Virus record (IMG/VR): IMGVR_UViG_3300049893_000724
Coordinates: 120,460-184,459 of that record
From: a virus
Reading direction: 5' to 3' (one strand)
DNA: 64,000 nucleotides
Shown here: piece by piece, positions 35,653 through 48,272 of the stretch
Layout: every line of letters begins with the position of its first letter
Numbering within the stretch: the stretch's first letter is position 1
Program-made: the position numbers and the translations under genes
Notes under the pieces: model-generated
Told to the model about the DNA's origin: nothing
Database searches by the model: none
What the model saw: the letters and a program-made list of their open reading frames with translations, nothing else

Positions 35653-35677
35653 AACACTCACTCAGCAACCCTGGGTG

Positions 35678-36202: not shown

Positions 36203-36225
36203 AAAAAAAGGGGGTGTAATCCCCT
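36203..36225 (-). terminator. Intrinsic terminator
   Basis: AGGGG-ATTACAC-CCCCT followed by a T run, just after the stop at 36231. Confidence 0.7.
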
Positions 36226-36230
36226 CTGAG

Positions 36231-36368
36231 TTAGTATGTCATAATAGATGCAATCGTACCTGCTCGTATATAGAAATCAACCATTCTTTCTGCTTCATTG
36301 TAGGTATTAAACCCTTGAAACTTCCACCCTTGAGAATAAGGACAGAACCAGCGAATCGTTGTTCTCAT
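36231..36368 (-). CDS. 45-aa hypothetical protein (not in ORF track)
   Basis: MRTTIRWFCPYSQGWKFQGFNTYNEAERMVDFYIRAGTIASIMTY. Confidence 0.65.
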   Translation of the reverse strand: MRTTIRWFCPYSQGWKFQGFNTYNEAERMVDFYIRAGTIASIMTY

Positions 36369-36383
36369 TGTGTTAAACTCCTA

Positions 36384-36602
36384 TCAGTTAAGTACACTTT
36401 CCACCATATCATTCACATAGTCTTCATCATAAAAGAGTGAAATCTCTTCGATCAGTTCATCTGGAGTTGAGCAACTTTCACGCAGATTCAGTTCAAGTTG
36501 TTCGCTTGCAAATTGTACCAAACTGTCGAGATCCATACCATCAACAATCTGCTCAATGTAGTTAGCAAGCAGTTTATCGTATTGGTCTTGAGTAAGTTCC
36601 AT
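36384..36602 (-). CDS. Acidic early hypothetical protein
   Basis: ORF track. Confidence 0.75.
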   Translation of the reverse strand: MELTQDQYDKLLANYIEQIVDGMDLDSLVQFASEQLELNLRESCSTPDELIEEISLFYDEDYVNDMVESVLN

Positions 36603-36619
36603 TTTGTTTGTGTAATGTT

Positions 36620-36790
36620 TCAGGAATGAGAGTGAAGAATGTCTAGCATTTGTTGGTGAAACTTGTCTGCCTCACGAACCACATTTGCTGCCTCTGATAC
36701 ATCTTCAATCTCATACTTTGTCATCTCCAGAGAATGAATCACATTAGAGAGAAGGTCAGTCAGTGCCTCAACTTTTTGTGCGTCAGTCAT
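36620..36790 (-). CDS. 56-aa hypothetical protein (not in ORF track)
   Basis: MTDAQKVEALTDLLSNVIHSLEMTKYEIED... Confidence 0.65.
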   Translation of the reverse strand: MTDAQKVEALTDLLSNVIHSLEMTKYEIEDVSEAANVVREADKFHQQMLDILHSHS

Positions 36791-36807
36791 CATCAATCTC
36801 CTTATGT

Positions 36808-37122
36808 TCAGTTCAGACGCATACCAGAGAAGAAAGGAATTGGGGCACCTTGATAGTTAATGAACCACTGGCCTTTCTTCTGAAAGACATACTCATTGTC
36901 ACAGCCATGCACTTTCAAAATAGCATTGAGGCGGGACTTTGTGGTTGCTGATTGATAACCACCATCGAACAATTCAATCCAAGTTTCACCAATGCGGGCA
37001 ATCAGATTACCGTACAGAAACACATCAGAAACATTGGAAAAGTTGATGACTTCAGTATTATCTTTCTTCCAATCTTGTGATGCAGTGATGGCATCATTCA
37101 TTTGCTTTTCGATGACTCGCAT
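36808..37122 (-). CDS. Early hypothetical protein
   Basis: First gene after R2; DGGYQSATTKSRLNAIL. Confidence 0.8.
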   Translation of the reverse strand: MRVIEKQMNDAITASQDWKKDNTEVINFSNVSDVFLYGNLIARIGETWIELFDGGYQSATTKSRLNAILKVHGCDNEYVFQKKGQWFINYQGAPIPFFSGMRLN

Positions 37123-37152
37123 TGTGAGAAGTGTTGTGCTTATACTACTGGT

Positions 37153-37171
37153 ACACTTTAAGTGGCTCAGT
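37153..37171 (-). repeat. Cassette repeat R2
   Basis: Exact 19-mer plus adjacent AGTAAC-T-GTTACT palindrome. Confidence 0.9.
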
Positions 37172-37176
37172 AACTG

Positions 37177-37290
37177 TTACTCAGCAGGTGAGATAATGTC
37201 AGCAACTGTGCGTAAAGTGTTGGCAGTGAGCGATCTTGTAGAAGGTGAAAAGACAAGTGCCATAATGAAAATCAATGCAAGAACTTTCAT
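37177..37290 (-). CDS. 37-aa hydrophobic peptide (not in ORF track)
   Basis: MKVLALIFIMALVFSPSTRSLTANTLRTVADIISPAE; stop lies in the R2 flank palindrome. Confidence 0.55.
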   Translation of the reverse strand: MKVLALIFIMALVFSPSTRSLTANTLRTVADIISPAE

Positions 37291-37308
37291 CTTCTTTCTT
37301 TTCATTCT

Positions 37309-37470
37309 TCAGAAGTATTGGCGGCAGTATTGTGATTCATTCCACCCGTCACGTTCATAACGTCGGGCATCATAATCATCGGCATCCATTAGATCATCGT
37401 GTTCGCAATCCTCATAATAAGCATCAAACTTTGAGTAGGAATCACCATTGTAAAATGAAGTTGTAGTCAT
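37309..37470 (-). CDS. 53-aa acidic protein (not in ORF track)
   Basis: MTTTSFYNGDSYSKFDAYYEDCEHDDLMDADDYDARRY... Confidence 0.6.
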   Translation of the reverse strand: MTTTSFYNGDSYSKFDAYYEDCEHDDLMDADDYDARRYERDGWNESQYCRQYF

Positions 37471-37472
37471 AG

Positions 37473-37715
37473 TCAAAAAGTATTCAGAACGTGAACAAAA
37501 TCAAGAGAAAAAACACACCAACCAACATAATCTGTCACCTCTTCGACTAATGCTTGAGCGATGGTTTCATCGGTGTCAGTATCATCAACTTCCACCTCGA
37601 AAGTATTACCAATCACAGAATTGATGACTTCTTGTTGTTCATCAACAGTGAAATCTTCATCATCAAAATCAAACAAAACCTCTGTGACTTGCAGTGTTAA
37701 GGTTTTCATCAACAT
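37473..37715 (-). CDS. Acidic hypothetical protein
   Basis: ORF track. Confidence 0.75.
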   Translation of the reverse strand: MLMKTLTLQVTEVLFDFDDEDFTVDEQQEVINSVIGNTFEVEVDDTDTDETIAQALVEEVTDYVGWCVFSLDFVHVLNTF

Positions 37716-37987
37716 GCACCATAGAAAGGATTACCAAGTTGTGGAAGGTTTGTATTATCGGCAGTCACAAGATAATTGTGTGCTAGACGCTCACGAATTG
37801 CGATTGCTTTCTCTACACGATTCAGATACTTTTTCGACATCTGATCAATACCTTGCCAGGAAAGAACTTGCAAACACCACTCCTTTGAGATGTCACCGTA
37901 AGGTGTTTTGACGGGATAAAATGATACGACCATCGTACCATCTTTAGAGTGAAGTGTAGGAAACTCAGTCATCGTTGAAGTGCTCAT
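37709..37987 (-). CDS. Early hypothetical protein
   Basis: First gene after R3; true start may be the second Met (MTEF). Confidence 0.75.
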   Translation of the reverse strand: MSTSTMTEFPTLHSKDGTMVVSFYPVKTPYGDISKEWCLQVLSWQGIDQMSKKYLNRVEKAIAIRERLAHNYLVTADNTNLPQLGNPFYGAC

Positions 37988-37996
37988 ACTATAGGG

Positions 37997-38015
37997 ACAC
38001 TTTAAGTGGCTCAGT
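37997..38015 (-). repeat. Cassette repeat R3
   Basis: Exact 19-mer plus AGTAAC-A-GTTACT. Confidence 0.9.
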
Positions 38016-38024
38016 AACAGTTAC

Positions 38025-38204
38025 TCAAAGACCGTTGATGTACTCTCTGAGTTCAGCATCATACTCCTCTTGAGTGTTAAAAATACGACCGTGAATGTTG
38101 AGAGGAAACTTCTTCTCAACACCAGCAGCTGCAACCATTTGGCAGTCTGCTTCATCGTAACCCATTTCGATGAGGTTCTGAACGTAGGGATTGTAATGTG
38201 TCAT
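38025..38204 (-). CDS. 59-aa hypothetical protein, sole gene of cassette R4-R3 (not in ORF track)
   Basis: MTHYNPYVQNLIEMGYDEADCQMVAAAGVEKKFPLNIHGR... Confidence 0.75.
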   Translation of the reverse strand: MTHYNPYVQNLIEMGYDEADCQMVAAAGVEKKFPLNIHGRIFNTQEEYDAELREYINGL

Positions 38205-38213
38205 ACTACTGGT

Positions 38214-38232
38214 ACACTTTAAGTGGCTCAGT
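38214..38232 (-). repeat. Cassette repeat R4
   Basis: Exact 19-mer. Confidence 0.9.
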
Positions 38233-38375
38233 TACTTAAACGATACGTTGACACCTACAACTTTTGCTGTAGGATTGCGAGCGAGTGCAGTTTCCCGTGC
38301 ATCTTTTGCAGAGTTTGCTTGCACTTCCTCCTTGAAGACTTTGCCACCAACGTATAACTCAACAATGTATTTCAT
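38232..38375 (-). CDS. 47-aa hypothetical protein (not in ORF track)
   Basis: MKYIVELYVGGKVFKEEVQANSAKDARETALARNPTAKVVGVNVSFK; stop overlaps R4. Confidence 0.7.
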   Translation of the reverse strand: MKYIVELYVGGKVFKEEVQANSAKDARETALARNPTAKVVGVNVSFK

Positions 38376-38572
38376 AGTGTTTGGAATGGTTGGACTTCTT
38401 TGATGTCAGAATTGAAAAACTTTTGAATGATGCTATCAATCACAGGATACCATTGTTCGTTATCACTCGGATAGCCACATTCTCGTGCTTGATTGAGAAA
38501 CTTCAAGATGCAAGTTTCCTCATTTGCAGTGAACTTAACGCGATTGAAAGTGTAACCAGTGTGTTCAGTCAT
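38372..38572 (-). CDS. Hypothetical protein
   Basis: ORF track; ATGA overlaps. Confidence 0.75.
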   Translation of the reverse strand: MTEHTGYTFNRVKFTANEETCILKFLNQARECGYPSDNEQWYPVIDSIIQKFFNSDIKEVQPFQTL

Positions 38573-38835
38573 TTGTTGTTAAGATTGCGGGAATTGATTT
38601 CTTCTTCGATGAGATCAAACACTTGCGTGTAGATGTAATCATAGTCTTCGACTTCGTTGAGAATATCGAACGCAACTTCACGATCTACAGGTACTTGATC
38701 GCCACCATCTTCGCTCCATACGAATACATCTTCATTGGTGAAGATAAATGCAGCAGCGGGTGCATCTTCTCCCTGTTGTTCGATCAGTCGATTAACACGA
38801 TCACGAAGATGTGCTAGGGTATTGTTGTTTGCCAT
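38569..38835 (-). CDS. Acidic hypothetical protein
   Basis: ORF track; ATGA overlap. Confidence 0.75.
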   Translation of the reverse strand: MANNNTLAHLRDRVNRLIEQQGEDAPAAAFIFTNEDVFVWSEDGGDQVPVDREVAFDILNEVEDYDYIYTQVFDLIEEEINSRNLNNK

Positions 38836-38969
38836 CAGATAAACTCTTCGAGGTAGTAATCAAGAGGAAGTCCAAGCTCTGCTGCTTGTTGTTCCCATTC
38901 GGTCCATTCTTCGGGAGAAGCATCATTGAAGAAGTCTTCCCGAGTATAATCAAAAACAGGTCCGCACAT
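38835..38969 (-). CDS. 44-aa acidic protein ending AAELGLPLDYYLEEFI (not in ORF track)
   Basis: Manual translation; resembles 47350..47487. Confidence 0.7.
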   Translation of the reverse strand: MCGPVFDYTREDFFNDASPEEWTEWEQQAAELGLPLDYYLEEFI

Positions 38970-39121
38970 AATCACTTTTTGTTGCGAGGGTTAATGTCAA
39001 TCAGTCGGTCAAGTGCATCACCAAGAGTAGAGCGAACTTGCTCATCTTTCAGTGATACAAACTCATACGCTTCGTAGAGTTTGATGTAAAGATCATCCCA
39101 TTGAGTTTGTGTCATTATCAA

Positions 39122-39370
39122 TCAGGCAGGAAGAATACAAAAGGTGCCACAGAAACGACGAACCCATTGTAGAGTTTCGTGGTAAGATGTGCGGGGGTTG
39201 CTCATCTCCATCGTAGAACCATTCTGAGGATTGTGTGCAACAGCAACATAAAGATTGTCGCACTCTTTATCAGTAATCTGCTCAATCCACATTTGATTGA
39301 CTTTACCTTCCTTCCAATTTGTGTGGTAGGAGTAGACTTCGGAGACGATCATCGGTTGAGTTGCGTTCAT
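39122..39370 (-). CDS. Early hypothetical protein
   Basis: First gene after R5. Confidence 0.75.
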   Translation of the reverse strand: MNATQPMIVSEVYSYHTNWKEGKVNQMWIEQITDKECDNLYVAVAHNPQNGSTMEMSNPRTSYHETLQWVRRFCGTFCILPA

Positions 39371-39379
39371 ACTACTGGT

Positions 39380-39398
39380 ACACTTTAAGTGGCTCAGT
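39380..39398 (-). repeat. Cassette repeat R5
   Basis: Exact 19-mer plus GTAAC-T-GTTAC. Confidence 0.9.
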
Positions 39399-39403
39399 AA
39401 CTG

Positions 39404-39718
39404 TTACCCATTTCTTCCATACCAAGCAAGAAACCCAATAATTGCAGCAACTGGTATAACAATCCACCAGTATTCTACAATCAACCAAATACCAAACACA
39501 ATTGCCGCTAACCATACATAACCCTCAACATCTCCATCAGATGAAGAAGAAGAACTGTTGGACTTTACTTCTCTCAAATTGACGATTTGTTGAACATCTC
39601 CGTGCTTGGCATAGATTTGTTCTTTCGCACCAGAGAATGTTGCAGCTTCAACCTCTGTGTTAATCCTACCGACGCGGGAGTTGACGAATACTTCTGCTCT
39701 CCAAGTTGCCATTACCAA
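39404..39718 (-). CDS. Membrane-anchored hypothetical protein
   Basis: C-terminal hydrophobic helices after a Ser-rich linker. Confidence 0.75.
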   Translation of the reverse strand: MVMATWRAEVFVNSRVGRINTEVEAATFSGAKEQIYAKHGDVQQIVNLREVKSNSSSSSSDGDVEGYVWLAAIVFGIWLIVEYWWIVIPVAAIIGFLAWYGRNG

Positions 39719-39966
39719 GTTCCTCTCTGAATGTGGATTTTGCGGACTTCCTGATACAGAAAATGCCGAAGTTTAGGGTCGGTAGTGTTATCAAAAGCAT
39801 AATACAATCGGTTCAGGTATTCATCTTGTGTCGAACCTATGTTACCATCACCACCAAGGTCATTGAGTGAAGAACCTGCTTTAGCTTTGGCACGTCCAAA
39901 GTTACCAGTGATGTTACCTTGTGTTCTTAGTTTCGGACGGATCTTTGAGAGATTAGAGTAAGTCAT
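39712..39966 (-). CDS. Hypothetical protein
   Basis: ORF track. Confidence 0.75.
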   Translation of the reverse strand: MTYSNLSKIRPKLRTQGNITGNFGRAKAKAGSSLNDLGGDGNIGSTQDEYLNRLYYAFDNTTDPKLRHFLYQEVRKIHIQRGTW

Positions 39967-40223
39967 CGTGCTACAATGTCCAGAGTTTCCATCAACATCA
40001 TCGCAAGTTCAGTCCGATTGTCTTCATCAACCACAGGAATGTTAGTTTCTACAAACTCACTCACAATTTCTTGCAGAAGGTCAGTCATTCGCTGGTCAGC
40101 ATACACATAACCTGCCAATTCATTCTTGAAACCGTCACGCAACAATCGCAGAGATTTTGTTACAGTGCGTTCTTGAGTAGTGTCAGTCATTTGAGGAAAG
40201 ATTTGTGTTTGGAGATACATCAA
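39963..40223 (-). CDS. Hypothetical protein
   Basis: ORF track; start probably MTDTT. Confidence 0.7.
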   Translation of the reverse strand: MMYLQTQIFPQMTDTTQERTVTKSLRLLRDGFKNELAGYVYADQRMTDLLQEIVSEFVETNIPVVDEDNRTELAMMLMETLDIVAR

Positions 40224-40678
40224 CGAGCGTACAAATAACCACCCGACCAGTCTGCATTTTCCAGCAGGTATTCACGATCAGCAATCAATCGCAGATCATA
40301 GCGTACACCTTGAGCAGGAGCTTTCCAAGAAGCAGACTTATACACTTCACCAGTCTTTTTATCAACGAAGCAGTGAGCAGAGCGACCACCGCCACCATCA
40401 ATAAAGATGACTTTGTGATACTTTTTGCCAGACTCGATGACATAATCAATGTCACACTTGCCAGACTTCAGTTCATCAATCTTGCGCTGATGATACTGTG
40501 ACTGAACCGAATCAGTGTTGTCGTAAGTATAATTGAAGTTCTCAATCGCTCGCTGATGTCCGCGAATCGAATACTGACGATAATTGTCTTTCAGTGCTTC
40601 AATCAGCAGATAGGTATTCTTGAGGACCGAATCTGCAATGATTTGTTGTGCTTGTGCTTGCATAGTAGTGGTGCTCAT
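40220..40678 (-). CDS. Early hypothetical protein (HCFVDKKTGEVYKSASWKAPA motif)
   Basis: First gene after R6; phage-type conserved motif. Confidence 0.8.
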   Translation of the reverse strand: MSTTTMQAQAQQIIADSVLKNTYLLIEALKDNYRQYSIRGHQRAIENFNYTYDNTDSVQSQYHQRKIDELKSGKCDIDYVIESGKKYHKVIFIDGGGGRSAHCFVDKKTGEVYKSASWKAPAQGVRYDLRLIADREYLLENADWSGGYLYAR

Positions 40679-40687
40679 ACTATAGGG

Positions 40688-40706
40688 ACACTTTAAGTGG
40701 CTCAGT
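40688..40706 (-). repeat. Cassette repeat R6
   Basis: Exact 19-mer. Confidence 0.9.
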
Positions 40707-40711
40707 TACAT

Positions 40712-41623
40712 TCACCAATTCTTTGCTAGGTTAAAATTTGCGCGACTGAATTGATAGCGGTCAACAATCTTGAAAGTGCCATAATTATTGACCATAACAT
40801 AACCTTCGTGATCACTTTGTTGACCATCAATCTCACAAAGGATTTCATCGTCACGCTCAATGAACCAGAACAAATCCATCTTGATTGAATACACCAACTT
40901 CCAAAGCCGAATCAGGTTGACATCACATTCACATTCTGATGCAATGTCATACTCAGCGACCTCATCAATTTGTTCACCCTCGCGGATGTAGCGATTGATA
41001 ACTTTTTTGAGTTCTTTCGCTTGCTTTTCATTCACGAAGTCGCAAAGAGTGCTCATTTGTTTAGCAAACTTGCACACATCTTCAATATCTTCACGATAAG
41101 GAGAGATCTCTGCTTCGGGACGCACAAACTTGCAGTATTTTGTGCTAATCAGATCACCTTCCAATGGATGAGCTTCCATCTCAGGAAGATAGTCTCCAGT
41201 GTAGTAAGTGTGAGGAGCAATGATAATCTCCTCACGCACAATCTCAGGAAACTTGTAAGTAATGGTATTGGGTCGGAATGTATCCAACCCTTTACCAAAA
41301 CCAATCCAATCACCTTGAAACACACCCTCAGTTTTAGGCAGAAACTCAAGGCAATAGATGAGGATTTGAGTTACACGCGGTTGACCACCAAAGTGCTCAA
41401 AAATGTCATCTTCATTATAGCAAAGACGAATCTTTTGCTTGTTAAATGCTGCCTTGGTGCATACAAAAAACTCACCATTTTGAGGATTAGTTCCCCACAC
41501 AATCGCAGGAGCACCATCAATCTTTACACTGATGTTGCTGTCGGTTTCATACATCCAATCCAGCACAGATAGATCCCCAGTGAGGATACAATCTTCGGGA
41601 TGTTCCAGGTGTTTGTTCTGCAT
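40712..41623 (-). CDS. Ligase-superfamily nucleotidyltransferase (DUF6267 / RNA-ligase-like)
   Basis: KHLEHPED start; motif I VKIDG, III FQGD, IV HEGYV, V FKIVDR. Confidence 0.6.
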   Translation of the reverse strand: MQNKHLEHPEDCILTGDLSVLDWMYETDSNISVKIDGAPAIVWGTNPQNGEFFVCTKAAFNKQKIRLCYNEDDIFEHFGGQPRVTQILIYCLEFLPKTEGVFQGDWIGFGKGLDTFRPNTITYKFPEIVREEIIIAPHTYYTGDYLPEMEAHPLEGDLISTKYCKFVRPEAEISPYREDIEDVCKFAKQMSTLCDFVNEKQAKELKKVINRYIREGEQIDEVAEYDIASECECDVNLIRLWKLVYSIKMDLFWFIERDDEILCEIDGQQSDHEGYVMVNNYGTFKIVDRYQFSRANFNLAKNW

Positions 41624-41632
41624 ACTATAGGG

Positions 41633-41651
41633 ACACTTTAAGTGGCTCAGT
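41633..41651 (-). repeat. Cassette repeat R7
   Basis: Exact 19-mer; supplies the TGA stop of the methyltransferase. Confidence 0.9.
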
Positions 41652-42210
41652 TTTCATCAAGAGGCAGTTTTGCAGCAGAGTTACTCTTTGGTATGATAAG
41701 TTCTTCCATAATGATTTGCTTTGGTAGAAAGTTCCAGCAATAGTAACTAGAACTGAACGTAATCTTGTCGTTTGGTCTACCATCAGGACTATGAAACTTC
41801 ATCCGTTTATCAAACATTAGTAGTTGCAGATCCTTATCCTTAAACAACTGTTTGGGAGCACTATCATTCAACCAGGTGTTAGTCATAATGAGGGCAAATG
41901 GTTTCCCAAAAGATAATGCTCGCTCAAAGAACTTACGTTTGTTGGTGAATGGTGGATTGGATACGATTACATCCCACTCAAAGTCAGGAACATAAGTGAG
42001 AAAATCTTGTCCCGTTGAAATGTGTGTGGAGATGACTAGATTTTGTGCTCCAATCTGCTTGACAAACTCACTCTCTTTGGTATCAAATGGACACCAGACC
42101 TTTGCATCTTTGGGAATGTATTTGAGAATGGGAGTTACACCGTATGCAGGAGTATAGCACTCGTCATTGTTACCCTGCGAGTACATTAGTTTGCCACTAT
42201 CAAGAGTCAT
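41647..42210 (-). CDS. Amino (N6A/N4C) DNA methyltransferase
   Basis: DECYTP, VWCPFD (degenerate motif I), GQDF, DVIVSNPPF (motif IV). Confidence 0.75.
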   Translation of the reverse strand: MTLDSGKLMYSQGNNDECYTPAYGVTPILKYIPKDAKVWCPFDTKESEFVKQIGAQNLVISTHISTGQDFLTYVPDFEWDVIVSNPPFTNKRKFFERALSFGKPFALIMTNTWLNDSAPKQLFKDKDLQLLMFDKRMKFHSPDGRPNDKITFSSSYYCWNFLPKQIIMEELIIPKSNSAAKLPLDEN

Positions 42211-42704
42211 ACAATACGAGTCCCAAATTGTTGGATTTCTTTCTTAGTCAGACTACCAGAGAGACGGGGATCTTTGTGCTTGCCGTGAATCTTACGCTCC
42301 CAATCTTTCTTGAGTTTAGGAAGAAGAATCATCAGCACATCATCACCAGTCAGTTTCCACACTTCCACAACTTTGCCACCTTCATAACGTGCAATGTAGT
42401 GGTTGGAGTATTTACCAAGCTTTTCTTCAATCAGATAACGCTCCTGCTCTTCCCAAGTATCTTGAACACTGATACCATTATACGTCCCATTGATAGAATT
42501 AGCAATGGTAGACTTATACTCACATTCACCCGATTCATCTACAGCATCAGCACCAGAATAGGTTTCTGCTACTTTATGCCCAAGAATACCAGCAAGATGT
42601 ATCTCACGAGAGCGAGCATAACTGAAAGGATCTCCCCAACCTTGTTCATCACAAAGTTGATACATTTCCTCAAACAGTTGTTGAAACCTTTGTTCTGGTG
42701 TCAC
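42207..42704 (-). CDS. PvuII-like PD-(D/E)xK restriction endonuclease
   Basis: GADAVDESGECEYKS vs recalled PvuII GNDAVDNAGQEYELKS; similarity continues to the C-terminus (DWERK..GKHKD...FGTRIV); ATGA overlap with the MTase. Confidence 0.7.
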   Translation of the reverse strand: MTPEQRFQQLFEEMYQLCDEQGWGDPFSYARSREIHLAGILGHKVAETYSGADAVDESGECEYKSTIANSINGTYNGISVQDTWEEQERYLIEEKLGKYSNHYIARYEGGKVVEVWKLTGDDVLMILLPKLKKDWERKIHGKHKDPRLSGSLTKKEIQQFGTRIV

Positions 42705-42728
42705 GGGTGTTCATTATCTACTAAAGGG

Positions 42729-42747
42729 ACACTTTAAGTGGCTCAGT
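42729..42747 (-). repeat. Cassette repeat R8
   Basis: Exact 19-mer; supplies the TGA stop of 42743..42931. Confidence 0.9.
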
Positions 42748-42931
42748 TTTCATCAACTGGCAGTTGTGCTACACTTTTGCCTTTCTTGTGGTCGTTGATG
42801 TACTTTCGTGCAGATGCTTCAGTTCTACACAGTTTCTCAAGTTGTTGACCGTTGTGGATAATGATGTATCCTTTGTTGCCATAAGGAACTGCTGCATAGA
42901 AATCCTTATACATTGTGAACCCTTCTTTCAT
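42743..42931 (-). CDS. Hypothetical protein
   Basis: ORF track; ATGA overlap. Confidence 0.75.
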   Translation of the reverse strand: MKEGFTMYKDFYAAVPYGNKGYIIIHNGQQLEKLCRTEASARKYINDHKKGKSVAQLPVDEN

Positions 42932-43458
42932 ACTAGAAACCTCTTTTCATACTCTAGAAGATCGGAAGGTGCTGGGATAATGTTGTCATCGTATTCTACA
43001 GCAGTTTTCCAGCTTGCGCCAGTCTTGCGATACAATTTGATGCCAAGATGCTGATACTTGAGATTAGTAGGGACGTGAACTTTATAGTCCACACCATCAT
43101 TCTCCGTCAGCATACTCAACCGCTTGTTCTCATCCTTGGTGACCGTAATCGTGGAACAAGATAACCAGAACAGGTTCTCAAATATGTCATAATCAGACAA
43201 ATACTTGTATGGGTTGTCCATAATCATCCGACCAATGAATTGTGGCGACAAACAGTGATCATGAGTACGCTCTTTTGGATTATCCTTTGCTGCCTCACTT
43301 ATCAAACCAAGATGATTGACCTGAGCACAATCAAACACACCAATGTAGTAAATGCGTGTGATGGGTCGGAAGAAATCAGGTTCGCCCCAGTTGTCTATAT
43401 TTGCCTGCAGAGAGTTAAATGTAGTTTGGCAGTAGGCTTTCCAGTTCTTGGAGTTCAT
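42928..43458 (-). CDS. Hypothetical protein, possible His-Me finger nuclease
   Basis: THDHCLSP...TITVTKDEN pattern. Confidence 0.5.
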   Translation of the reverse strand: MNSKNWKAYCQTTFNSLQANIDNWGEPDFFRPITRIYYIGVFDCAQVNHLGLISEAAKDNPKERTHDHCLSPQFIGRMIMDNPYKYLSDYDIFENLFWLSCSTITVTKDENKRLSMLTENDGVDYKVHVPTNLKYQHLGIKLYRKTGASWKTAVEYDDNIIPAPSDLLEYEKRFLV

Positions 43459-43560
43459 TTTAATAAAAAGCGGTGATCTGGTTGCGGTGGATGGGTTCTA
43501 GGTCGCTTGCAGTAGAATTGCAGAAAAATCAGGTTTTTGGCCTAGTGGCCATCAGGGTTC

Positions 43561-44742
43561 TCACCGCTTGATGACCGACACGGCAGGTTGACCCTGATTG
43601 AAGATAGTATCAACAACTGCCTGCACTTTGCGTGAGGTGCTGATGCCAACCTTGTCATATACAGGCACACAAACCAGACCAAACTTCTTGGTTTCGTCAC
43701 CCAAACGGATCACACGTCCGATAGTCTGAGAGATGCCAATGTAATCCATATTCCGCATAAACAACACCGCTTCCAATCCAGACACATTAATGCCCTCAGA
43801 TAGGATGCTGTGGTGAATGACAACAAATCGCTTGCTGCTATCCTTACCCCAAGCATTGAGGGTATCAAAGAATACCTCACGGTCAACTTTCTTGCCGTCA
43901 ATGACAGCACCAGTCTTGGCAGTAATATACATCCAAGAGTAACCACGTTGCTCTAGTTGAGCACAGAAGTCTGATTGAGAAACAAGACCCACAATCTGTT
44001 TGGTAGAGCGAGCACAAATCAGAATCTTGCTGAGGTTCTGGTCATCAATCGTCTCCATCAGATTGTCAGCGTCACGCTCAAAGATCATCTGCCGATCTTG
44101 AACCATAGGCAGTTGCTTCACGACAACTTTAGGAGGCAAAATGTATCCACCATCAACCAACTCAGGAGCAGGAACTTGGCAGATTACCTGACCATAAACC
44201 TCAGGGAGGTTCATCCCAGGTTTAGAAATAGTGGTAGAATGTTTGGGAGTTGCAGTGAAGAAGTAGCAACGGTTAGCATTAGCACTGAAGTGCTCAGTTG
44301 CAGGGAAAAAGTGACGCTGAACGCTGTTATGTGCCTCATCAAAGTAGATCGTATCCACATCAATCTCAGCATCAACCAGACGCTGCAAAGAGTTGTACGT
44401 GGTGAAGATCAACTGATGACGATTAGCAGCGGCACACATACCTGCGTGAACAACAATGTCGGCAGGTTTGGTAGTGCTAACGTGATGAGTTTCGCCACTG
44501 TGAACGTGCAGAACTTCAGCGTTGGTGATGTGCTCCAGAAACTCAGAAGAGAGTTGCTCAGCAAGCAGAATACGGGGAGCAACAACTACAACAGTCTGCG
44601 GAGTTTCAGACTGAAACTGACGCATTGTATCATAGATCATCTTCAGCGTTTTACCGCCACCAGTAGGAACAATCACTTGGCCCTTGCTGTGCTTCTGCAT
44701 CGCAGCAATAGCACGGGATTGATGAGGACGAAGAGTAATCAT
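43561..44742 (-). CDS. Superfamily 2 helicase/ATPase (ResIII-like DEAD/DEAH box)
   Basis: VPTGGGKT, YFDEAH, FFTAT, ILSEGINV, SQTIGRVIR. Confidence 0.9.
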   Translation of the reverse strand: MITLRPHQSRAIAAMQKHSKGQVIVPTGGGKTLKMIYDTMRQFQSETPQTVVVVAPRILLAEQLSSEFLEHITNAEVLHVHSGETHHVSTTKPADIVVHAGMCAAANRHQLIFTTYNSLQRLVDAEIDVDTIYFDEAHNSVQRHFFPATEHFSANANRCYFFTATPKHSTTISKPGMNLPEVYGQVICQVPAPELVDGGYILPPKVVVKQLPMVQDRQMIFERDADNLMETIDDQNLSKILICARSTKQIVGLVSQSDFCAQLEQRGYSWMYITAKTGAVIDGKKVDREVFFDTLNAWGKDSSKRFVVIHHSILSEGINVSGLEAVLFMRNMDYIGISQTIGRVIRLGDETKKFGLVCVPVYDKVGISTSRKVQAVVDTIFNQGQPAVSVIKR

Positions 44743-44783
44743 TACAAATTACAGTGTTTCAGGTGGTTTGGTATCTAAAAGAC

Positions 44784-44819
44784 ATTATAGCACCCTTCTA
44801 GGCGATTGTGAAGGGTGCT
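44784..44819 (-). promoter_or_regulatory. Sigma70-type promoter with embedded stem-loop
   Basis: TTCACA-17-TATAAT; AGCACCCTTC/GAAGGGTGCT 10-bp stem. Confidence 0.7.
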
Positions 44820-44840
44820 GATGATGTATCTGTAACTAGA

Positions 44841-44859
44841 ACACTTTGAGTGGCTCAGT
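44841..44859 (-). repeat. Cassette repeat R9 (one mismatch, ACACTTTGAGTGGCTCAGT)
   Basis: 18/19 identity; lacks the TAGTAT extension. Confidence 0.8.
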
Positions 44860-45464
44860 TAATCTTTGCCGCCTTCGTCACCTGTTCCAGTGTACTTGTG
44901 CTTTAATTGACTTTCTTTCTTCTTACCAGTTGCTTTCAACACAATGTCGCGTAGAGTTCTTCTACCTGCTCTCTTGAGTTGTCTCTTTTCTGCTCTGGTG
45001 TATTCACCTTTTACAGTTTTAACTTGCTTTTGGCGTTGTGGTGCTTCTTTCTTTTTCTTAAGAAGTTGTGATGCCGCTGATGTTAATTCTTTTTCTTTAG
45101 GTTTAGCAGCAGTTGCAGATGCGCCTGTTTTCTTTGCAGCAGCTCTTGCTCTTGCTGCTGCTACTCTTTCTGCTTTTGCTGCTGCTAATTGTTTCTCTCT
45201 TGCAGACCCACGCTCTTGTTCTGGTTGCTGAACTCTTGTTTCTGCTTTACGCTGAGTTCCAATATCTTTGCGTGGTTTGTATTCTTTGGCAGGAACAGTT
45301 TGTCCCCCACCTACTCTCTTTGTCCTGCGTCTTTCAGGAGCAGTTTTCTTACGCTCAGCTCCAACTCTTCCACCATCACCAACGCGACGGATTTGAGATG
45401 AACCCATAACACTAGCGTCATAGGCTGCTTCAGCAATCAAAACAAACTCCTGAAAGGTTTTCAT
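44859..45464 (-). CDS. Lys/Arg/Ala-rich protein with capsid-targeting-like N-terminus
   Basis: MKTFQEFVLIAEA...; late promoter CTAAATA at 45488-45494. Confidence 0.75.
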   Translation of the reverse strand: MKTFQEFVLIAEAAYDASVMGSSQIRRVGDGGRVGAERKKTAPERRRTKRVGGGQTVPAKEYKPRKDIGTQRKAETRVQQPEQERGSAREKQLAAAKAERVAAARARAAAKKTGASATAAKPKEKELTSAASQLLKKKKEAPQRQKQVKTVKGEYTRAEKRQLKRAGRRTLRDIVLKATGKKKESQLKHKYTGTGDEGGKD

Positions 45465-45487
45465 CAGTATCTAAACACTCTTTTTAG

Positions 45488-45494
45488 TATTTAG
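45488..45494 (-). promoter_or_regulatory. Late promoter (CTAAATA)
   Basis: Variant of the late consensus about 24 nt upstream of ATG 45464. Confidence 0.55.
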
Positions 45495-45691
45495 AACTCC
45501 TCCTCCTTTGCTTTATACGAACCCTTGAACACACGTCCCTCAGCATACAGTTGGCGGACACGTTCGCGGCGAGTAGCAATCAACAAATCGTATTGAGATT
45601 GTTGTTCCTTCGTGAACACAAAGTCTTGTTTCCGCCACGCATCTTTCAGTTCATTGATGTGAGGCAGCACATTAGCAATAGTTTCAGTCAT
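45491..45691 (-). CDS. Hypothetical protein
   Basis: Start taken at MTETIANVLP rather than the track start. Confidence 0.7.
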   Translation of the reverse strand: MTETIANVLPHINELKDAWRKQDFVFTKEQQSQYDLLIATRRERVRQLYAEGRVFKGSYKAKEEEF

Positions 45692-45695
45692 TGAA

Positions 45696-45884
45696 TCAAA
45701 AATCAAAGTTGGAGTTAAGGAAAGCGTTGAAAGATTTGTCGTTATCCTCTTCCTCAAAGAGGGGTTCATTCATTTCCTCAACAAAGTCAAAGGAAGAAAA
45801 CTCTTCAATTTGCAGATCGTCGAAGCAGTCCATAATTTGTTTGTTGCTTACACTATTGAAACACTTTAAGTGGCTCAGTTTCAA
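45696..45884 (-). CDS. Acidic hypothetical protein (true start downstream of R10)
   Basis: Track ORF runs through R10; likely start MDCFDD. Confidence 0.6.
   Translation of the reverse strand: MKLSHLKCFNSVSNKQIMDCFDDLQIEEFSSFDFVEEMNEPLFEEEDNDKSFNAFLNSNFDF
45861..45879 (-). repeat. Cassette repeat R10
   Basis: Exact 19-mer. Confidence 0.9.
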
Positions 45885-46076
45885 TCAACGGGACAGAATT
45901 GCTTTCATATTAGCACGCTTCGCTGCCTGTTGTGCTCTTGCTTCAGCACCTAACTCCTGGTGAACGTGCTTAATATGTGCAGTCTTTTGTGTTGCTTGGC
46001 GCTTAGCAACTTGTTGACTGTAGTAGTTTGGCTCCATATGTGGAGATTGTTCCATAAATTGCTGAAACGTCTTCAT
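45885..46076 (-). CDS. 63-aa basic protein with capsid-targeting-like N-terminus
   Basis: MKTFQQFMEQS...; late promoter ATAAATA at 46096-46102. Confidence 0.75.
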   Translation of the reverse strand: MKTFQQFMEQSPHMEPNYYSQQVAKRQATQKTAHIKHVHQELGAEARAQQAAKRANMKAILSR

Positions 46077-46306
46077 TTTACCAACACTTTTTCATTATTT
46101 ATTGTTGGGACATCATTCCAATGTCTTATGACCCCCGCACAAATGAAAAGATTAGTAATGAGATAAGTGAGAAATATAAAGATCCGTATATAAGCAATGT
46201 TGTCTGCTTCTCTGTCATTTTTACCTGCTTTTTCTCCTAATGCTTTAGCAACTAATCGGAACGCAGTTTCCTTCTTCTTCGTACACCGATTCTCTGGTTT
46301 TGACAT
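46073..46306 (-). CDS. Small membrane protein
   Basis: RLVAKALGEK...IAYIRIFIFLTYLITNLFICAGVIRHW. Confidence 0.7.
   Translation of the reverse strand: MSKPENRCTKKKETAFRLVAKALGEKAGKNDREADNIAYIRIFIFLTYLITNLFICAGVIRHWNDVPTINNEKVLVK
46096..46102 (-). promoter_or_regulatory. Late promoter (ATAAATA)
   Basis: 20 nt upstream of ATG 46076. Confidence 0.6.
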
Positions 46307-46514
46307 ACTCTAACTCACACCACTGTTCTGAATAACAAACCACAAGCAATCGGTCATTCCGATGTATTGAACACGCTTTATAGTTAGTCTTATCTTTAGG
46401 ACGCACCAATTCTTCAATTGTAATATACTCTTTATCTTTGAAATAAACCCAACCCTCAACACCTTTTCCGTTATTCCACTTCACATAGTCATTGACTTTG
46501 GGTTCGTAGGTCAT
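46245..46514 (-). CDS. Hypothetical protein
   Basis: ORF track; ATGA overlap. Confidence 0.75.
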   Translation of the reverse strand: MTYEPKVNDYVKWNNGKGVEGWVYFKDKEYITIEELVRPKDKTNYKACSIHRNDRLLVVCYSEQWCELEYVKTRESVYEEEGNCVPISC

Positions 46515-46810
46515 ACAAATGCACTTTCCAGGGGTGTTTGTTTGATAGGCATTGCTGTGTAGTTTCGAGTATTCTTAAACTCCACAACTTTACCAACTTC
46601 CTTACTATTTACAGGACTATAGAACTCACACTTTTTGTAGGAATAGAATCCCCAGATGGTGCGGGTCGGTTTTCCCAAATTGTAATCAAACCTGCGGTCA
46701 CAACGCAACCAAATAGAAAACACATTACGTTTGAACTCTTCAACTTCATAGGAATAACCTTTGGGTGGTTTATGCGTAAACTGAGGAATTAAATCAACAG
46801 AGAGTTTCAT
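46511..46810 (-). CDS. Hypothetical protein
   Basis: MKLSVDLIPQF...IWGFY...TAM. Confidence 0.75.
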   Translation of the reverse strand: MKLSVDLIPQFTHKPPKGYSYEVEEFKRNVFSIWLRCDRRFDYNLGKPTRTIWGFYSYKKCEFYSPVNSKEVGKVVEFKNTRNYTAMPIKQTPLESAFV

Positions 46811-46977
46811 CAACAATCGTAGAACTTTTCTTGAGTGAGAAGTTTAATCATTTCCTGAAGTTGCAGGATTTCCTGTTGCTGTTCTGTAATCTTTTGTTGT
46901 AGTTCTGTAATGCGTCCTTGATACTGTTCTTTTAATTCACCAACCATATGGTTGGTGTGAGATACATTTTGTGTCAC
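46810..46977 (-). CDS. 55-aa Gln/Glu coiled-coil protein (not in ORF track)
   Basis: GTG start overlapping the upstream stop; heptad pattern. Confidence 0.65.
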   Translation of the reverse strand: MTQNVSHTNHMVGELKEQYQGRITELQQKITEQQQEILQLQEMIKLLTQEKFYDC

Positions 46978-47216
46978 GTCGTAAAACTCTCAACAACTTC
47001 AGAATCTACATTTTCAGCAAGAGCAAATGTCACAGCATTAAGAATGTTTTCCTTCAAATCACTGTAGTATTTCTCATAGAAATTACCATCATCTTCAGCA
47101 GAAATCAAATCAAAACATTCATCATCATCCTCTGCAATGACATTCCAAACTCCACCATATTCTGATGCAGGAAAAGGAACATAGTGTTGAACGATGTAAA
47201 GAAACTTTTGTGCCAT
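46974..47216 (-). CDS. Acidic hypothetical protein
   Basis: Downstream of promoter 47240-47268. Confidence 0.8.
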   Translation of the reverse strand: MAQKFLYIVQHYVPFPASEYGGVWNVIAEDDDECFDLISAEDDGNFYEKYYSDLKENILNAVTFALAENVDSEVVESFTT

Positions 47217-47239
47217 TGTTGTTTGTAGATTACCTCTTA

Positions 47240-47268
47240 ATTGTAGTAGTTTTTGTCGCCTTCGTCAA
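47240..47268 (-). promoter_or_regulatory. Sigma70-type promoter
   Basis: TTGACG-17-TACAAT, GAGG SD downstream. Confidence 0.8.
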
Positions 47269-47349
47269 GGTTGTTTCGGTCAGCCGCAAATATAAATGCT
47301 GCACCGATTGTGAGTAGAGAACCAAGACCCATTCCAAGTAGAAAAGTCA

Positions 47350-47487
47350 TCAATAAAACTCCGCAAGATAATAATCAACAGGAACTTCTAAACGTGCTGC
47401 TTCACGCTCAACTTCTTTCCAAAACTCTTCTGCTGCTTTATTCATCTCTGCTTTTTTGATGAGGTCTTGGATGCGTTTTGGAATCAT
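47350..47487 (-). CDS. 45-aa protein ending EAARLEVPVDYYLAEFY (not in ORF track)
   Basis: Manual translation; resembles 38835..38969. Confidence 0.7.
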   Translation of the reverse strand: MIPKRIQDLIKKAEMNKAAEEFWKEVEREAARLEVPVDYYLAEFY

Positions 47488-47818
47488 TTTCGTCTAGGTA
47501 ATCGAAGTGTTTAGAGAATAGAACTGTAAAAAACCAAGCAAATGCTGCTGAGATGATGAGAAAGTAAATCACCTTTGATTTACTATCGCCTGCTGACGAT
47601 AGTACGCTTTATAGAGTTTTTCATCACGTTGGATTAGAAATACATTCCATCCAATCATTGCAATGAAACCAAGAGCGAAAGTGATGACATACTTACGGTT
47701 CATTTTTCAGTCTCAACAGTTGTCTTCAGAAGTTCATAATCTTGTTTTTTGTTGTAGATATTCATAACAAGATCCACAACACAATAACCAAAGGCAAATC
47801 CTGCCATAATTGAAGTAA

Positions 47819-48226
47819 TCATACTGCTAGTGCTCCGTTAGGGATTTCAACGATTTCGGGGAGTTTCTCCTCAAAGGTATTCATATCATAGCACACCCAT
47901 TCACCACTGCGGAAGACATAGGCATACTCTTCACCTTCACGAAGATACTCACAGAGGTCAGCATCAAGGCGAGGAGGGCAATCATCACCGCGATAAGAAT
48001 AATAGTTAGGACCATAAACACCTTTCTTACCACTATCATCCCAACGCTCATCAGTCCAGGCACAGGACACATCACCACCATCAATCAGTTCTTCAGCAAG
48101 AGATTTGGTGTTGTAGTGAGTAGTCAGAATACGACCCAACCATTCGGGATAACCATCCCAGTGGTGATACACGGAAAGAATAGAACCGTCTTTGAGTTCA
48201 AGACCAATTCGTGAGCGAGTTGCCAT
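47819..48226 (-). CDS. Early phage protein (YHHWDGYP motif)
   Basis: MATRSRIG...SVYHHWDGYPEWLG...EEYAYVF; first gene after R11. Confidence 0.8.
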   Translation of the reverse strand: MATRSRIGLELKDGSILSVYHHWDGYPEWLGRILTTHYNTKSLAEELIDGGDVSCAWTDERWDDSGKKGVYGPNYYSYRGDDCPPRLDADLCEYLREGEEYAYVFRSGEWVCYDMNTFEEKLPEIVEIPNGALAV

Positions 48227-48252
48227 CAGAGAGTTGTGCTTATACTACAGGG

Positions 48253-48271: not shown

Positions 48272-48272
48272 T

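What the first reader, a model, noticed from the sequence alone, without database searches (positions are those of the whole stretch)
41633..42747. Phage-encoded restriction-modification cassette: PvuII-like nuclease with a non-PvuII-type methyltransferase
Seen: interval R8-R7 contains only two ATGA-coupled genes, a 165-aa PD-(D/E)xK protein and a 187-aa NPPF amino-methyltransferase. By eye the nuclease follows the recalled R.PvuII sequence over its full length (YQL...G..D.F; DAVD..G..E.KS; KY...IA.Y.G; WERK...HKD; GT.I). Knowledge: PvuII cuts CAGCTG and its own partner is a larger beta-class N4C methylase, so this pairing differs. CAGCTG is present in the window (e.g. 6396, 35728), so the site is either protected or different. 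Inference: an early-expressed mobile R-M module for host DNA degradation, exclusion of competing phages or selfish maintenance.
Basis: partly seen in the sequence, partly recalled or inferred. Interest (0 to 1): 0.8.

Follow-up and report, generated by a model that had tools for sequence, protein, structure and literature searches.

The report
Cyanophage PvuII-fold nuclease–methylase cassette
A T4-like virus of freshwater or estuarine cyanobacteria carries a compact, movable two-gene restriction-modification unit: a DNA cutter related to PvuII, joined to a very small adenine methylase that probably shields the virus's own DNA while unmethylated host or rival DNA is cut.

Summary
On the minus strand, a 165-aa nuclease gene (42207-42704) overlaps a 187-aa methylase gene (41647-42210) by ATGA.

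- **Nuclease:** it is a true PvuII relative. The fold search gave PvuII at E 2.5e-7 (TM 0.66-0.74). A family profile hit PvuII at E 2e-7 over the full length. The catalytic D53/E62/K64 are conserved, and a homodimer is predicted.
- **Specificity:** PvuII's DNA-reading residues are not conserved, and CAGCTG is not avoided. The site is therefore probably different.
- **Methylase:** it is a M.TaqI-like gamma-class adenine-methylase core with no target-recognition domain. It is not PvuII's beta-class partner.
- **Linkage:** all 80 nearest viral contigs have an amino-methylase gene at or just downstream of the nuclease gene. Where the two genes are unlinked, they still share a genome. Both are under purifying selection (dN/dS about 0.07-0.09).
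- **Mobility:** the pair moves as a unit between slots of an 11-copy repeat array. A natural variant lacks exactly the 1096-bp unit.
- **Candidate site:** CATG is the best candidate (about 0.45). It is about 9-fold depleted in the window, and absent from a 50-kb methylase-less record.

This scan had already found this nuclease family on other DNA, as methylase-less copies in CATG-free phages. Early expression and the biological role are inferred, not shown.

The parts
42207..42704 (-). PvuII-fold PD-ExK nuclease gene, 165 aa, GTG start. Catalytic D53, E62, K64.
   Evidence: ORF. Fold. Profile hit to PvuII. Invariant residues. dN/dS 0.088. Homodimer model.
41647..42210 (-). Minimal gamma-class (TaqI-like) amino-methyltransferase gene, 187 aa. 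It has a DF motif (69-70) and NPPF (85-88) and no target-recognition domain.
   Evidence: ORF. PHROG 799 'DNA methyltransferase' at E 1e-35. Top fold hit M.TaqI at E 1.3e-6. Invariant motifs. dN/dS 0.065.
42207..42210 (-). ATGA overlap of the nuclease stop and the methylase start, giving nuclease-then-methylase translational coupling.
   Evidence: Sequence. The same 4-nt overlap occurs in 63 of 89 related loci.
42719..42769 (-). Upstream border: a copy of the repeated element, whose core on the coding strand reads GAGCCACTTAAAGTGT. It includes the 3' end of the 62-aa ORF (…LPVDEN*).
41623..41673 (-). Downstream border: the most similar copy of the same element (92% over 51 nt). It includes the methylase 3' end (…LPLDEN*) and abuts the ATG of the DUF6267 gene.
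41623..42718 (-). The 1096-bp cassette unit, one repeat period long, that is present or absent as a block.
   Evidence: A contig in run X17 joins 41622 to 42719, with 46 letters shared by both sides. The repeat spacing is 1096. In phage SynMITS9220M01 the orf62 homolog is directly followed by the DUF6267 homolog.

Best explanation
This is a compact Type IIP-like restriction-modification cassette carried by a lytic T4-like cyanomyovirus.

**Nuclease.** It is a PvuII-fold homodimer with an intact D…ExK metal site. I infer that it cuts a short adenine-containing palindrome in unmethylated double-stranded DNA. The site is not PvuII's CAGCTG. The best candidate is CATG (about 0.45).

**Methylase.** The gene directly downstream, translationally coupled, encodes a 187-aa TaqI-like N6-adenine methylase core. 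I infer that it methylates the same site on phage DNA.

**Why nuclease-before-methylase is tolerable.** Packaged phage DNA should already carry the mark from the previous infection, so this gene order does not harm the phage. The host chromosome and any co-infecting unmarked phage are exposed.

**Mobility.** The pair sits as one 1096-bp unit between two copies of a repeated regulatory element in the early, hyperplastic region. It is shuffled among slots of that array by recombination at the repeats.

**Shown here:** fold, homology, catalytic residues, gene linkage, purifying selection, cassette mobility and site-depletion patterns.

**Inferred:** enzymatic activity, identity of the site, protection by the methylase, timing and biological role. 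I favour host DNA breakdown and/or exclusion of rival phages.
For: **The nuclease is a PvuII relative**
- Foldseek's top ten hits are all PvuII (E 2.5e-7 to 2.2e-6, TM 0.59-0.74, 19-20% identity over about 170 columns). The query model has pLDDT 93.5.
- A profile of 41 homologs hits PvuII at E 2e-7 over the full length. D53/E62/K64 align with PvuII D58/E68/K70.
- These residues are invariant in 24 close homologs and at least 90% conserved in 41 diverse ones.
- A relative, P0261, passes Pfam PF09225's own cut-off (30.6 bits).
- Homodimer model: score 0.79 against a best control of 0.01. This mark was reached by 20 of 30 proteins solved as pairs and by 1 of 23 solved as single chains. The runs agree in at least 98% of contacts, partner pLDDT is at least 89, and the interface is residues 2-45. 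PvuII dimers are solved, so the pass may reflect likeness only.

**The methylase is a TaqI-like core**
- M.TaqI is the top fold hit (E 1.3e-6).
- PHROG 799 matches at E 1e-35.
- NPPF and DF are invariant.
- It is the only recognisable DNA methylase in the 88%-complete record.

**The two genes are linked**
- 79 of the 80 nearest IMG/VR loci have the small methylase downstream. In most it overlaps or lies within 8 nt; in the rest it is 77 to about 1150 nt away.
- The 80th locus, L074, has a 539-aa NPPY methylase in that position.
- A 55%-identical nuclease (L088) still has the small methylase gene overlapping its 3' end.
- Where unlinked, both genes still share a genome: P-SSM2 and P-SSM5 (6.6 kb apart) and G001 and G003 (about 14-15 kb apart).
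- dN/dS is 0.088 for the nuclease and 0.065 for the methylase.

**The cassette is mobile:**

**Site evidence**
- CATG occurs 36 times in the window against 314 +/- 15 in shuffles, and 141 times against 564 expected genome-wide.
- It is the only 4-bp palindrome depleted in every nuclease-bearing group.
- It is exactly 0 in the 50-kb record G002, which has the nuclease but no methylase.
- The putative DNA-reading segments are conserved between that methylase-less copy and this one.

**Precedent:** chloroviruses and marseilleviruses use complete R-M systems offensively, and in melbournevirus the nuclease is transcribed before the methylase (PMC7253447). Cyanomyoviruses lack T4's denA, denB and ndd (PMC2984593).
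Against: - No activity, methylation or expression data exist.
- The methylase model is only moderate (pLDDT 70). The protein passes no Pfam or NCBIfam cut-off and lacks a glycine-rich motif I and any target-recognition domain. Its sequence specificity, and even its substrate, are unproven.
- The methylase family is about four times more diverse than the nuclease family (4382 against 1013 clusters). It also occurs without the nuclease in Thermus, Fusobacterium and Flavobacterium phages, as an ordinary orphan methylase would.
- CATG depletion is not specific enough. In 43 related loci with no nuclease in view, pooled observed/expected is 0.40 (range 0.06-0.84). Methylase-bearing carriers are themselves strongly depleted (0.10-0.41 in most groups), which simple protection does not predict.
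- AGCT is equally depleted, but it is depleted in non-carriers too.
- The promoter scan is at chance level.
Confidence: 0.72

Rival explanations
1. The two genes have separate jobs and travel together only as cargo. The small methylase is an ordinary anti-restriction (orphan) methylase aimed at host R-M systems. The nuclease spares the phage by site avoidance, not by methylation.
For: - The methylase family is common without the nuclease in unrelated phages.
- Methylase-less nuclease copies exist in CATG-free DNA (earlier notes e1-5353286 and e1-5804289).
- CATG is strongly depleted even in methylase-bearing genomes.
Against: - All 80 nearest loci have an amino-methylase gene at or just downstream of the nuclease gene. 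63 of 89 related loci share the 4-nt overlap.
- The partner is replaced by another NPPY methylase in L074, not lost.
- The genes co-occur in the same genome even when 6-15 kb apart.
- Genomes with the methylase tolerate 39-141 CATG sites, whereas the methylase-less record has none.
Confidence: 0.13
2. The cassette is chiefly a selfish element, homing-like or an addiction module. In mixed infections the nuclease cuts cassette-less relatives, and repair from the carrier genome, or loss of the rival, spreads the cassette. Any benefit to the phage is secondary. This overlaps with the main reading rather than excluding it.
For: - There is a presence/absence polymorphism exactly at the repeats.
- The pair occupies at least five different neighbour contexts.
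- Extra HNH-like or unknown ORFs are inserted between the two genes in some loci.
- Marseillevirus R-M acts against rival viruses (PMC7253447).
Against: - A 4-bp cutter would not target one homing site.
- There is strong purifying selection and wide retention across lineages from 50% to 97% identity.
Confidence: 0.2
3. The nuclease is modification-dependent, like the PvuII-fold enzymes NhoI and Eco15I. It attacks methylated DNA of hosts or rivals rather than unmethylated DNA.
For: The NhoI and Eco15I N-terminal domains are the next-best fold hits (E 1.8e-4 to 1e-2).
Against: - These hits are much weaker than PvuII (TM 0.41-0.53 against 0.59-0.74).
- A co-encoded methylase would create targets on the phage's own DNA.
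- Complete purging of an unmodified word in methylase-less genomes fits an enzyme that cuts unmodified DNA.
Confidence: 0.03

Closest known systems
R.PvuII / PvuII R-M system (Type IIP, CAG^CTG; Pfam PF09225; PDB 1pvi, 2pvi, 1f0o, 3ksk)
   Same: - Same fold over the whole chain.
- Same D…ExK catalytic triad position.
- Similar size (165 against 157 aa).
- Predicted homodimer through the N-terminal helices.
- A methylase gene lies next door.
   Different: - About 20% identity.
- PvuII D34 aligns with Tyr29, and H83-H85 align with Q81-D82-T83.
- PvuII N140/N141 have no conserved Asn counterpart. Close relatives instead have an invariant K-D-P-R motif.
- CAGCTG is not avoided.
- The partner is a gamma-class TaqI-like adenine-methylase core, not a beta-class N4-cytosine enzyme (the class of M.PvuII is own knowledge).
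- There is no C-protein gene.
- The genes are co-directional, nuclease first, and overlapping.
- It is carried by a lytic phage. No relative was found in 185,579 prokaryote species genomes by the pattern scan.
M.TaqI (gamma-class N6-adenine DNA methyltransferase, TCGA; PDB 2adm, 1g38)
   Same: - Best structural match.
- Same motif order, with a DF…NPP[YF] spacing like TaqI's (sequence reading plus own knowledge of TaqI motifs).
   Different: - 187 aa against about 420 aa. The whole C-terminal DNA-recognition domain is missing.
- There is no glycine-rich motif I.
- Below all Pfam cut-offs.
Chlorovirus and marseillevirus R-M systems (PMC7253447 and its reference 14, Agarkova et al. 2006)
   Same: - Complete R-M pairs encoded by lytic viruses and used offensively, for host DNA breakdown or exclusion of rival viruses.
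- In melbournevirus the nuclease is expressed before the methylase.
   Different: - Eukaryotic viruses with unrelated enzymes.
- Virion packaging of the nuclease is known there and untested here.
Methylase-less copies of the same nuclease family in CATG-free cyanophages
   Same: Same nuclease family. The putative DNA-reading segments are conserved between a methylase-less copy and this one.
   Different: This window holds the methylase-bearing form. Its genome keeps 141 CATG sites, against none in the methylase-less record that I checked.
PeSL-type promoter/stem-loop cassettes that shuffle genes in T4-type phages (Arbiol et al. 2010; own knowledge, not read here)
   Same: Repeated short regulatory elements bound small gene units in the hyperplastic early region, and the units change place.
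   Different: The element's sequence is different, and its promoter function is untested.

Membership tests
PvuII-family Type IIP restriction endonuclease (PF09225) | PvuII fold over the whole chain | tested here: met
   The Foldseek top ten hits are PvuII, at E 2.5e-7 to 2.2e-6 and TM 0.59-0.74. The model has pLDDT 93.5.
PvuII-family Type IIP restriction endonuclease (PF09225) | Significant sequence match to the family model or to PvuII | tested here: inconclusive
   The single protein scores 19.5 bits, below Pfam's cut-off of 25. phmmer and a shallow profile find nothing. A 41-sequence profile hits PvuII at E 2e-7, and relative P0261 passes the cut-off at 30.6 bits.
PvuII-family Type IIP restriction endonuclease (PF09225) | Catalytic D…E-x-K triad | tested here: met
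   D53, E62 and K64 align with PvuII D58, E68 and K70. They are invariant in alignment A1.
PvuII-family Type IIP restriction endonuclease (PF09225) | Homodimer | tested here: met
   This is a prediction only. The score is 0.79 against a best control of 0.01, and the interface is residues 2-45. The pass may reflect memory of solved PvuII dimers.
PvuII-family Type IIP restriction endonuclease (PF09225) | CAGCTG recognition (PvuII base-contact residues D34, H83-85, N140/N141) | tested here: not met
   These residues are replaced: Y29 for D34, Q81-D82-T83 for H83-H85, and no conserved Asn pair. CAGCTG occurs 7 times against 10.3 +/- 3.1 expected.
PvuII-family Type IIP restriction endonuclease (PF09225) | Site-specific double-strand cleavage that is blocked by the partner's methylation | not testable with these tools
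   This needs enzyme assays.
Type II R-M system | Nuclease and methylase genes linked and co-inherited | tested here: met
   All 80 nearest loci have an amino-methylase gene at or just downstream of the nuclease gene. The genes share a genome when unlinked.
Type II R-M system | Control (C) protein or another delay device for the nuclease | tested here: not met
   The 1096-bp unit contains only two ORFs. The nuclease gene comes first.
Gamma-class N6-adenine DNA methyltransferase (TaqI / Eco57I type) | Class I methyltransferase fold with an NPP[YF] motif IV following motifs X and I | tested here: met
   M.TaqI is the top fold hit. YTP (residues 19-21), DF (69-70) and NPPF (85-88) occur in that order and are invariant.
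Gamma-class N6-adenine DNA methyltransferase (TaqI / Eco57I type) | Family model cut-off | tested here: not met
   Eco57I scores 18.2 against a cut-off of 25.3, and EcoRI_methylase 17.8 against 26.4. Only PHROG 799 matches strongly.
Gamma-class N6-adenine DNA methyltransferase (TaqI / Eco57I type) | Separate target-recognition domain | tested here: not met
   The protein ends about 100 residues after NPPF. The fold match covers only TaqI's N-terminal domain (TM normalised to the target 0.28-0.30).

The most novel reading that the evidence does not exclude
Cyanomyoviruses hold a whole evolutionary series of one offensive restriction system.

- **Methylase-protected stage:** this window, where CATG survives at about a quarter of expectation.
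- **Later stage:** lineages that have thrown away the methylase after purging every CATG from their genomes.

On this reading the 187-aa protein would be a sequence-specific DNA adenine methylase with no recognition domain, among the smallest known. The PvuII fold would here read a 4-bp word (CA|TG, the outer letters of CAG|CTG). The system would supply the host-DNA breakdown function that cyanomyoviruses lack for want of denA, denB and ndd.
Probability: 0.35. Interest if true: 0.8.

Novelty: new variant of a known kind. Interest (0 to 1): 0.62.

Why it matters
- **Annotation gap.** The nuclease is listed as 'hypothetical protein' in every cultured phage that has it (P-SSM2, P-SSM5, P-TIM68), and its PHROG has no function. 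Yet the family has more than 1000 sequence clusters in aquatic metagenomes.
- **An open question.** Complete restriction systems used as weapons by lytic viruses are well documented in chloroviruses and marseilleviruses (PMC7253447). A widespread one in T4-like cyanophages would bear on how these phages deal with host DNA without T4's den genes (PMC2984593). It would also bear on how they compete in mixed infections.
- **Enzymology.** The system offers a recognition-domain-less methylase and a PvuII-fold enzyme with a new specificity.
- **Testability.** P-SSM2 and P-TIM68 are in culture.

Tried and rejected
**Searches that found nothing or failed**
- Single-sequence phmmer and a shallow 24-sequence profile against the PDB did not find PvuII. 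A wider profile was needed.
- The methylase profile found nothing in the PDB by sequence.
- NCBIfam and PADLOC gave nothing useful for the nuclease.
The contexts of the most distant homologs could therefore not be read, except for L088.
- The wide alignment A3 was too diverse for a pattern scan.
- Alignment A1 found no relative in genome contigs.
- Single distant proteins P0253 and P0353 found nothing in viral contigs.
- Four literature searches found no paper on a PvuII-like nuclease or R-M pair in cyanophages. A fifth search, on phage-encoded restriction in lytic phages, gave nothing relevant. The library is incomplete.

**Candidate sites rejected**
- CAGCTG: not avoided, and the contact residues differ.
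- AGCT: depleted about 3-fold in carriers and non-carriers alike.
- CCGG: it has no adenine, and it is absent from the sampled 50-kb segment of non-carrier P-SSM4 too.
- GATATC: 58 observed against 81 expected.

**Tests that could not settle the point**
- The sigma-70 promoter and terminator scan was at chance level (10 sites against 9.2 +/- 2.9). It does not call the repeat element a promoter.
- Contigs from three RNA libraries (three studies) cover parts of both genes and bridge both repeat borders. Such libraries can hold DNA, and contigs cannot show starts, strand or timing, so expression is not shown. No listed contig bridges the nuclease-methylase junction.
- A clean rule that only carriers are CATG-depleted did not hold against 43 related loci without the nuclease in view.
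Full report
**1. What is there**

Both genes lie on the minus strand. The nuclease ORF is 42207..42704 (165 aa, GTG start). The methylase ORF is 41647..42210 (187 aa), and its ATG overlaps the nuclease TGA as ATGA.

The two long plus-strand ORFs that overlap them have no family match and are taken as antisense artefacts.

The pair is bounded by two copies of a repeat, at 41623-41673 and 42719-42769. These two copies are 92% alike over 51 nt, against 63-71% for the other copies. The repeat occurs 11 times between 35.6 and 48.3 kb of the window and nowhere else in the 184-kb record.

The window is the last 64 kb of a 184,459-bp IMG/VR virus record that is 88% complete. It is a T4-like cyanomyovirus (Kyanoviridae relatives). 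Near-identical DNA is held by freshwater, reservoir, river, estuary and sediment metagenomes from roughly ten independent studies.

**2. The nuclease**

- Pfam PF09225 (PvuII) matches over residues 5-140, but below the cut-off (19.5 bits, E 1e-3). PHROG 35715, of unknown function, matches at 1e-84.
- An AlphaFold model built on 24 homologs has pLDDT 93.5. Its ten best Foldseek hits in the PDB are all PvuII (E 2.5e-7 to 2.2e-6, TM 0.59-0.74, about 20% identity). Next come the methyl-dependent PvuII-fold enzymes Eco15I-N and NhoI, which are much weaker.
- A library-wide profile search found 231 cluster representatives, all from metagenomes where checked. A profile of 41 diverse members hits PvuII chains at E 2e-7, over query 10-165 against PvuII 14-157.
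- In that alignment D53, E62 and K64 sit on PvuII's D58, E68 and K70. They are invariant or nearly so.
- PvuII's base-reading residues are not kept. D34 aligns with Tyr29, and H83-H85 with Q81-D82-T83. No Asn pair corresponds to N140/N141; close relatives instead share an invariant K-D-P-R motif.
- A homodimer is predicted through residues 2-45. The score is 0.79 against a best control of 0.01. This mark was reached by 20 of 30 proteins solved as pairs and 1 of 23 solved as single chains. The runs agree in at least 98% of contacts, and pLDDT is at least 89. Because PvuII dimers are solved, this shows likeness rather than binding.
- dN/dS against 62 relatives is 0.088.
- The GTG start is unusual: 79 of 89 relatives use ATG.

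**3. The methylase**

- No Pfam or NCBIfam cut-off is passed. There are weak hits to EcoRI_methylase, Eco57I and MTS around the NPPF motif. PHROG 799 'DNA methyltransferase' matches at 1e-35.
- The model is moderate (pLDDT 70). Its best structural matches are M.TaqI chains (E 1.3e-6, TM 0.52-0.54 normalised to the query but 0.28-0.30 to TaqI). Type I M subunits and M.BseCI follow.
- The order YTP … DF … NPPF, and the segment after NPPF, follow TaqI's N-terminal domain. There is no C-terminal recognition domain and no glycine-rich motif I (the comparison with TaqI rests on own knowledge).
- dN/dS is 0.065.
- The record has no PF01555, PF02086 or PF00145 methylase.

**4. Are the two a system?**

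- In 79 of the 80 closest IMG/VR loci the small methylase lies downstream of the nuclease. In most it overlaps or lies within 8 nt. In a few there is an extra ORF between, HNH-like in L059 and unknown in L068-L071.
- In the 80th locus, L074, a 539-aa NPPY methylase distantly related to the small one takes its place.
- At 55% nuclease identity (L088) the small methylase gene still overlaps the nuclease gene's 3' end.
- Where nothing is adjacent, the methylase is elsewhere in the same genome. It is 6.6 kb away in P-SSM2 and P-SSM5, 3 kb away in L097-L099, and about 14-15 kb away in G001 and G003.
- Among cultured cyanophages, the only records with this methylase are the ones with the nuclease.
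- Outside cyanophages the methylase family stands alone in Thermus, Fusobacterium, Flavobacterium and Streptococcus phages.
- This asymmetry is what an R-M pair predicts: the methylase can live alone, while the nuclease hardly ever does.

**5. The one exception, and the site**

Earlier notes of this scan reported methylase-less copies of this nuclease in cyanophages with no CATG at all. I had already seen CATG as the most depleted 4-bp palindrome here, at 141 observed against 564 expected. I then tested the lead.

- The window holds 36 CATG against 314 +/- 15 in shuffles.
- Record G002 (50 kb) has the nuclease but none of the methylases I searched for. It has 0 CATG, and CATG and CCGG are its only missing 4-mers.
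- G001, which has the methylase, holds 39 CATG (observed/expected 0.10).
- Across seven groups of nuclease-bearing loci, CATG is the only palindrome depleted in all of them. This includes lineages where AGCT is not depleted.
- The putative DNA-reading segments are conserved between the methylase-less copy and this one.

Against the lead:

- Three marine non-carriers show 0.56-0.82. However, 43 related loci with no nuclease in view pool at 0.40, and some reach 0.06.
- Methylase-bearing carriers are themselves strongly depleted.

CATG is therefore the best candidate, at about 0.45, and is not established. CAGCTG is not avoided. AGCT is depleted in non-carriers too.

**6. Mobility**

- In the non-carrier isolate SynMITS9220M01 the homolog of the 62-aa ORF is followed directly by the DUF6267 gene. 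Here the pair sits exactly between them.
- A contig in run X17 joins 41622 to 42719, skipping 1096 nt, with 46 letters common to both sides. That is precisely one repeat period.
- In carriers with enough flanking sequence, the nuclease-methylase pair keeps together but lies before DUF6267, between DUF6267 and DUF7717, after DUF7717, or right after the helicase.
- This fits recombination at the repeated elements, as described for promoter/stem-loop cassettes of T4-type phages (own knowledge).

**7. Expression and role**

Neither is shown.

- The consensus promoter scan is at chance level. Its best hit is upstream of the helicase gene (44812-44784), and there is no terminator between that site and the pair.
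- Contigs from three RNA libraries cover parts of both genes and run across both repeat borders. They cannot prove transcription or timing.
- The nuclease-first order with translational coupling and no C protein would be dangerous for a plasmid entering a naive cell. It is harmless if the incoming phage DNA is already methylated; this is inference. In melbournevirus the nuclease is likewise transcribed before the methylase (PMC7253447).
- I favour attack on unmethylated DNA in the infected cell, meaning host DNA, rival phages or both. A selfish component cannot be excluded.

**8. Comparison and novelty**

It works like a Type IIP R-M system, and the nuclease belongs to the PvuII structural family. 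It is not a PvuII isoschizomer system for several reasons:

- the recognition residues differ;
- the partner methylase is of a different class;
- there is no C protein;
- the gene order differs;
- the carrier is a lytic phage.

Public records call the nuclease hypothetical. I found no paper on it.

P-SSM4 carries a different pair, annotated 'restriction endonuclease II' + methylase + dam, beside its helicase gene. The first two have no Pfam match. The idea of R-M-like cargo at this locus is therefore not new in annotation.

The scan has met this nuclease family before on other DNA.

Verdict: a new variant of a known kind, with interest about 0.6.

Noticed in passing
window 35624-48293: There is an eleven-copy, same-orientation repeat whose core on the coding strand reads GAGCCACTTAAAGTGT, with a 5+5 palindrome. 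It is followed after about 5 nt by a TAnnnT box. Often the ATG of the next gene overlaps that box, which fits poorly with a simple -10 element for that gene. Other notes of this scan cover it.
   Followed up: partly
whole record G000 (window included): AGCT is about 3-fold depleted. Sixteen 6-bp palindromes are absent, among them GGTACC, GTGCAC, CACGTG and GACGTC, each with 10-15 expected. The AGCT depletion is shared by non-carrier cyanophages.
   Followed up: partly
L083 (P-SSM4) 40590-43188: At the matching place beside the helicase gene, P-SSM4 carries a different trio annotated 'restriction endonuclease II', 'DNA methyltransferase' and dam. The first two have no Pfam match.
   Followed up: partly
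L074 10514-12133: In one relative the small methylase is replaced by a 539-aa NPPY methylase with long N- and C-terminal extensions. It is 24% identical to the small one around motifs I-IV.
   Followed up: partly
L059 10495-10926; L068 7650-8666; L070 2299-3222: Extra ORFs are inserted between the nuclease and methylase genes in some relatives. One is a weak HNH match (143 aa). Two have no family match (307 and 338 aa).
   Followed up: partly
proteins P0272, P0285, P0261: Fused forms of the nuclease domain exist in metagenomes: behind a Zeta-toxin/AAA_33 kinase domain (557 aa), before a Myb-like DNA-binding domain (243 aa), and with a 170-aa N-terminal extension (343 aa; passes Pfam PvuII's cut-off).
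   Followed up: no
window 42477-42505 (minus strand): A sigma-70-like match, TTGCTA-17-TATAAT (10 of 12), lies inside the nuclease ORF about 270 nt upstream of the methylase start. It could give a methylase-only transcript, but the scan as a whole is at chance level.
   Followed up: no
window 40712-41623 and 40220-40678: The neighbouring genes encode DUF6267 (303 aa, E 1.5e-82) and DUF7717 (152 aa). Both are conserved backbone genes of this early region with unknown function.
   Followed up: no
window 41500-42900: Habitat: the stretch is held near-identically by freshwater, reservoir, river, estuary and sediment metagenomes, not by open-ocean ones, among the runs listed.
   Followed up: no
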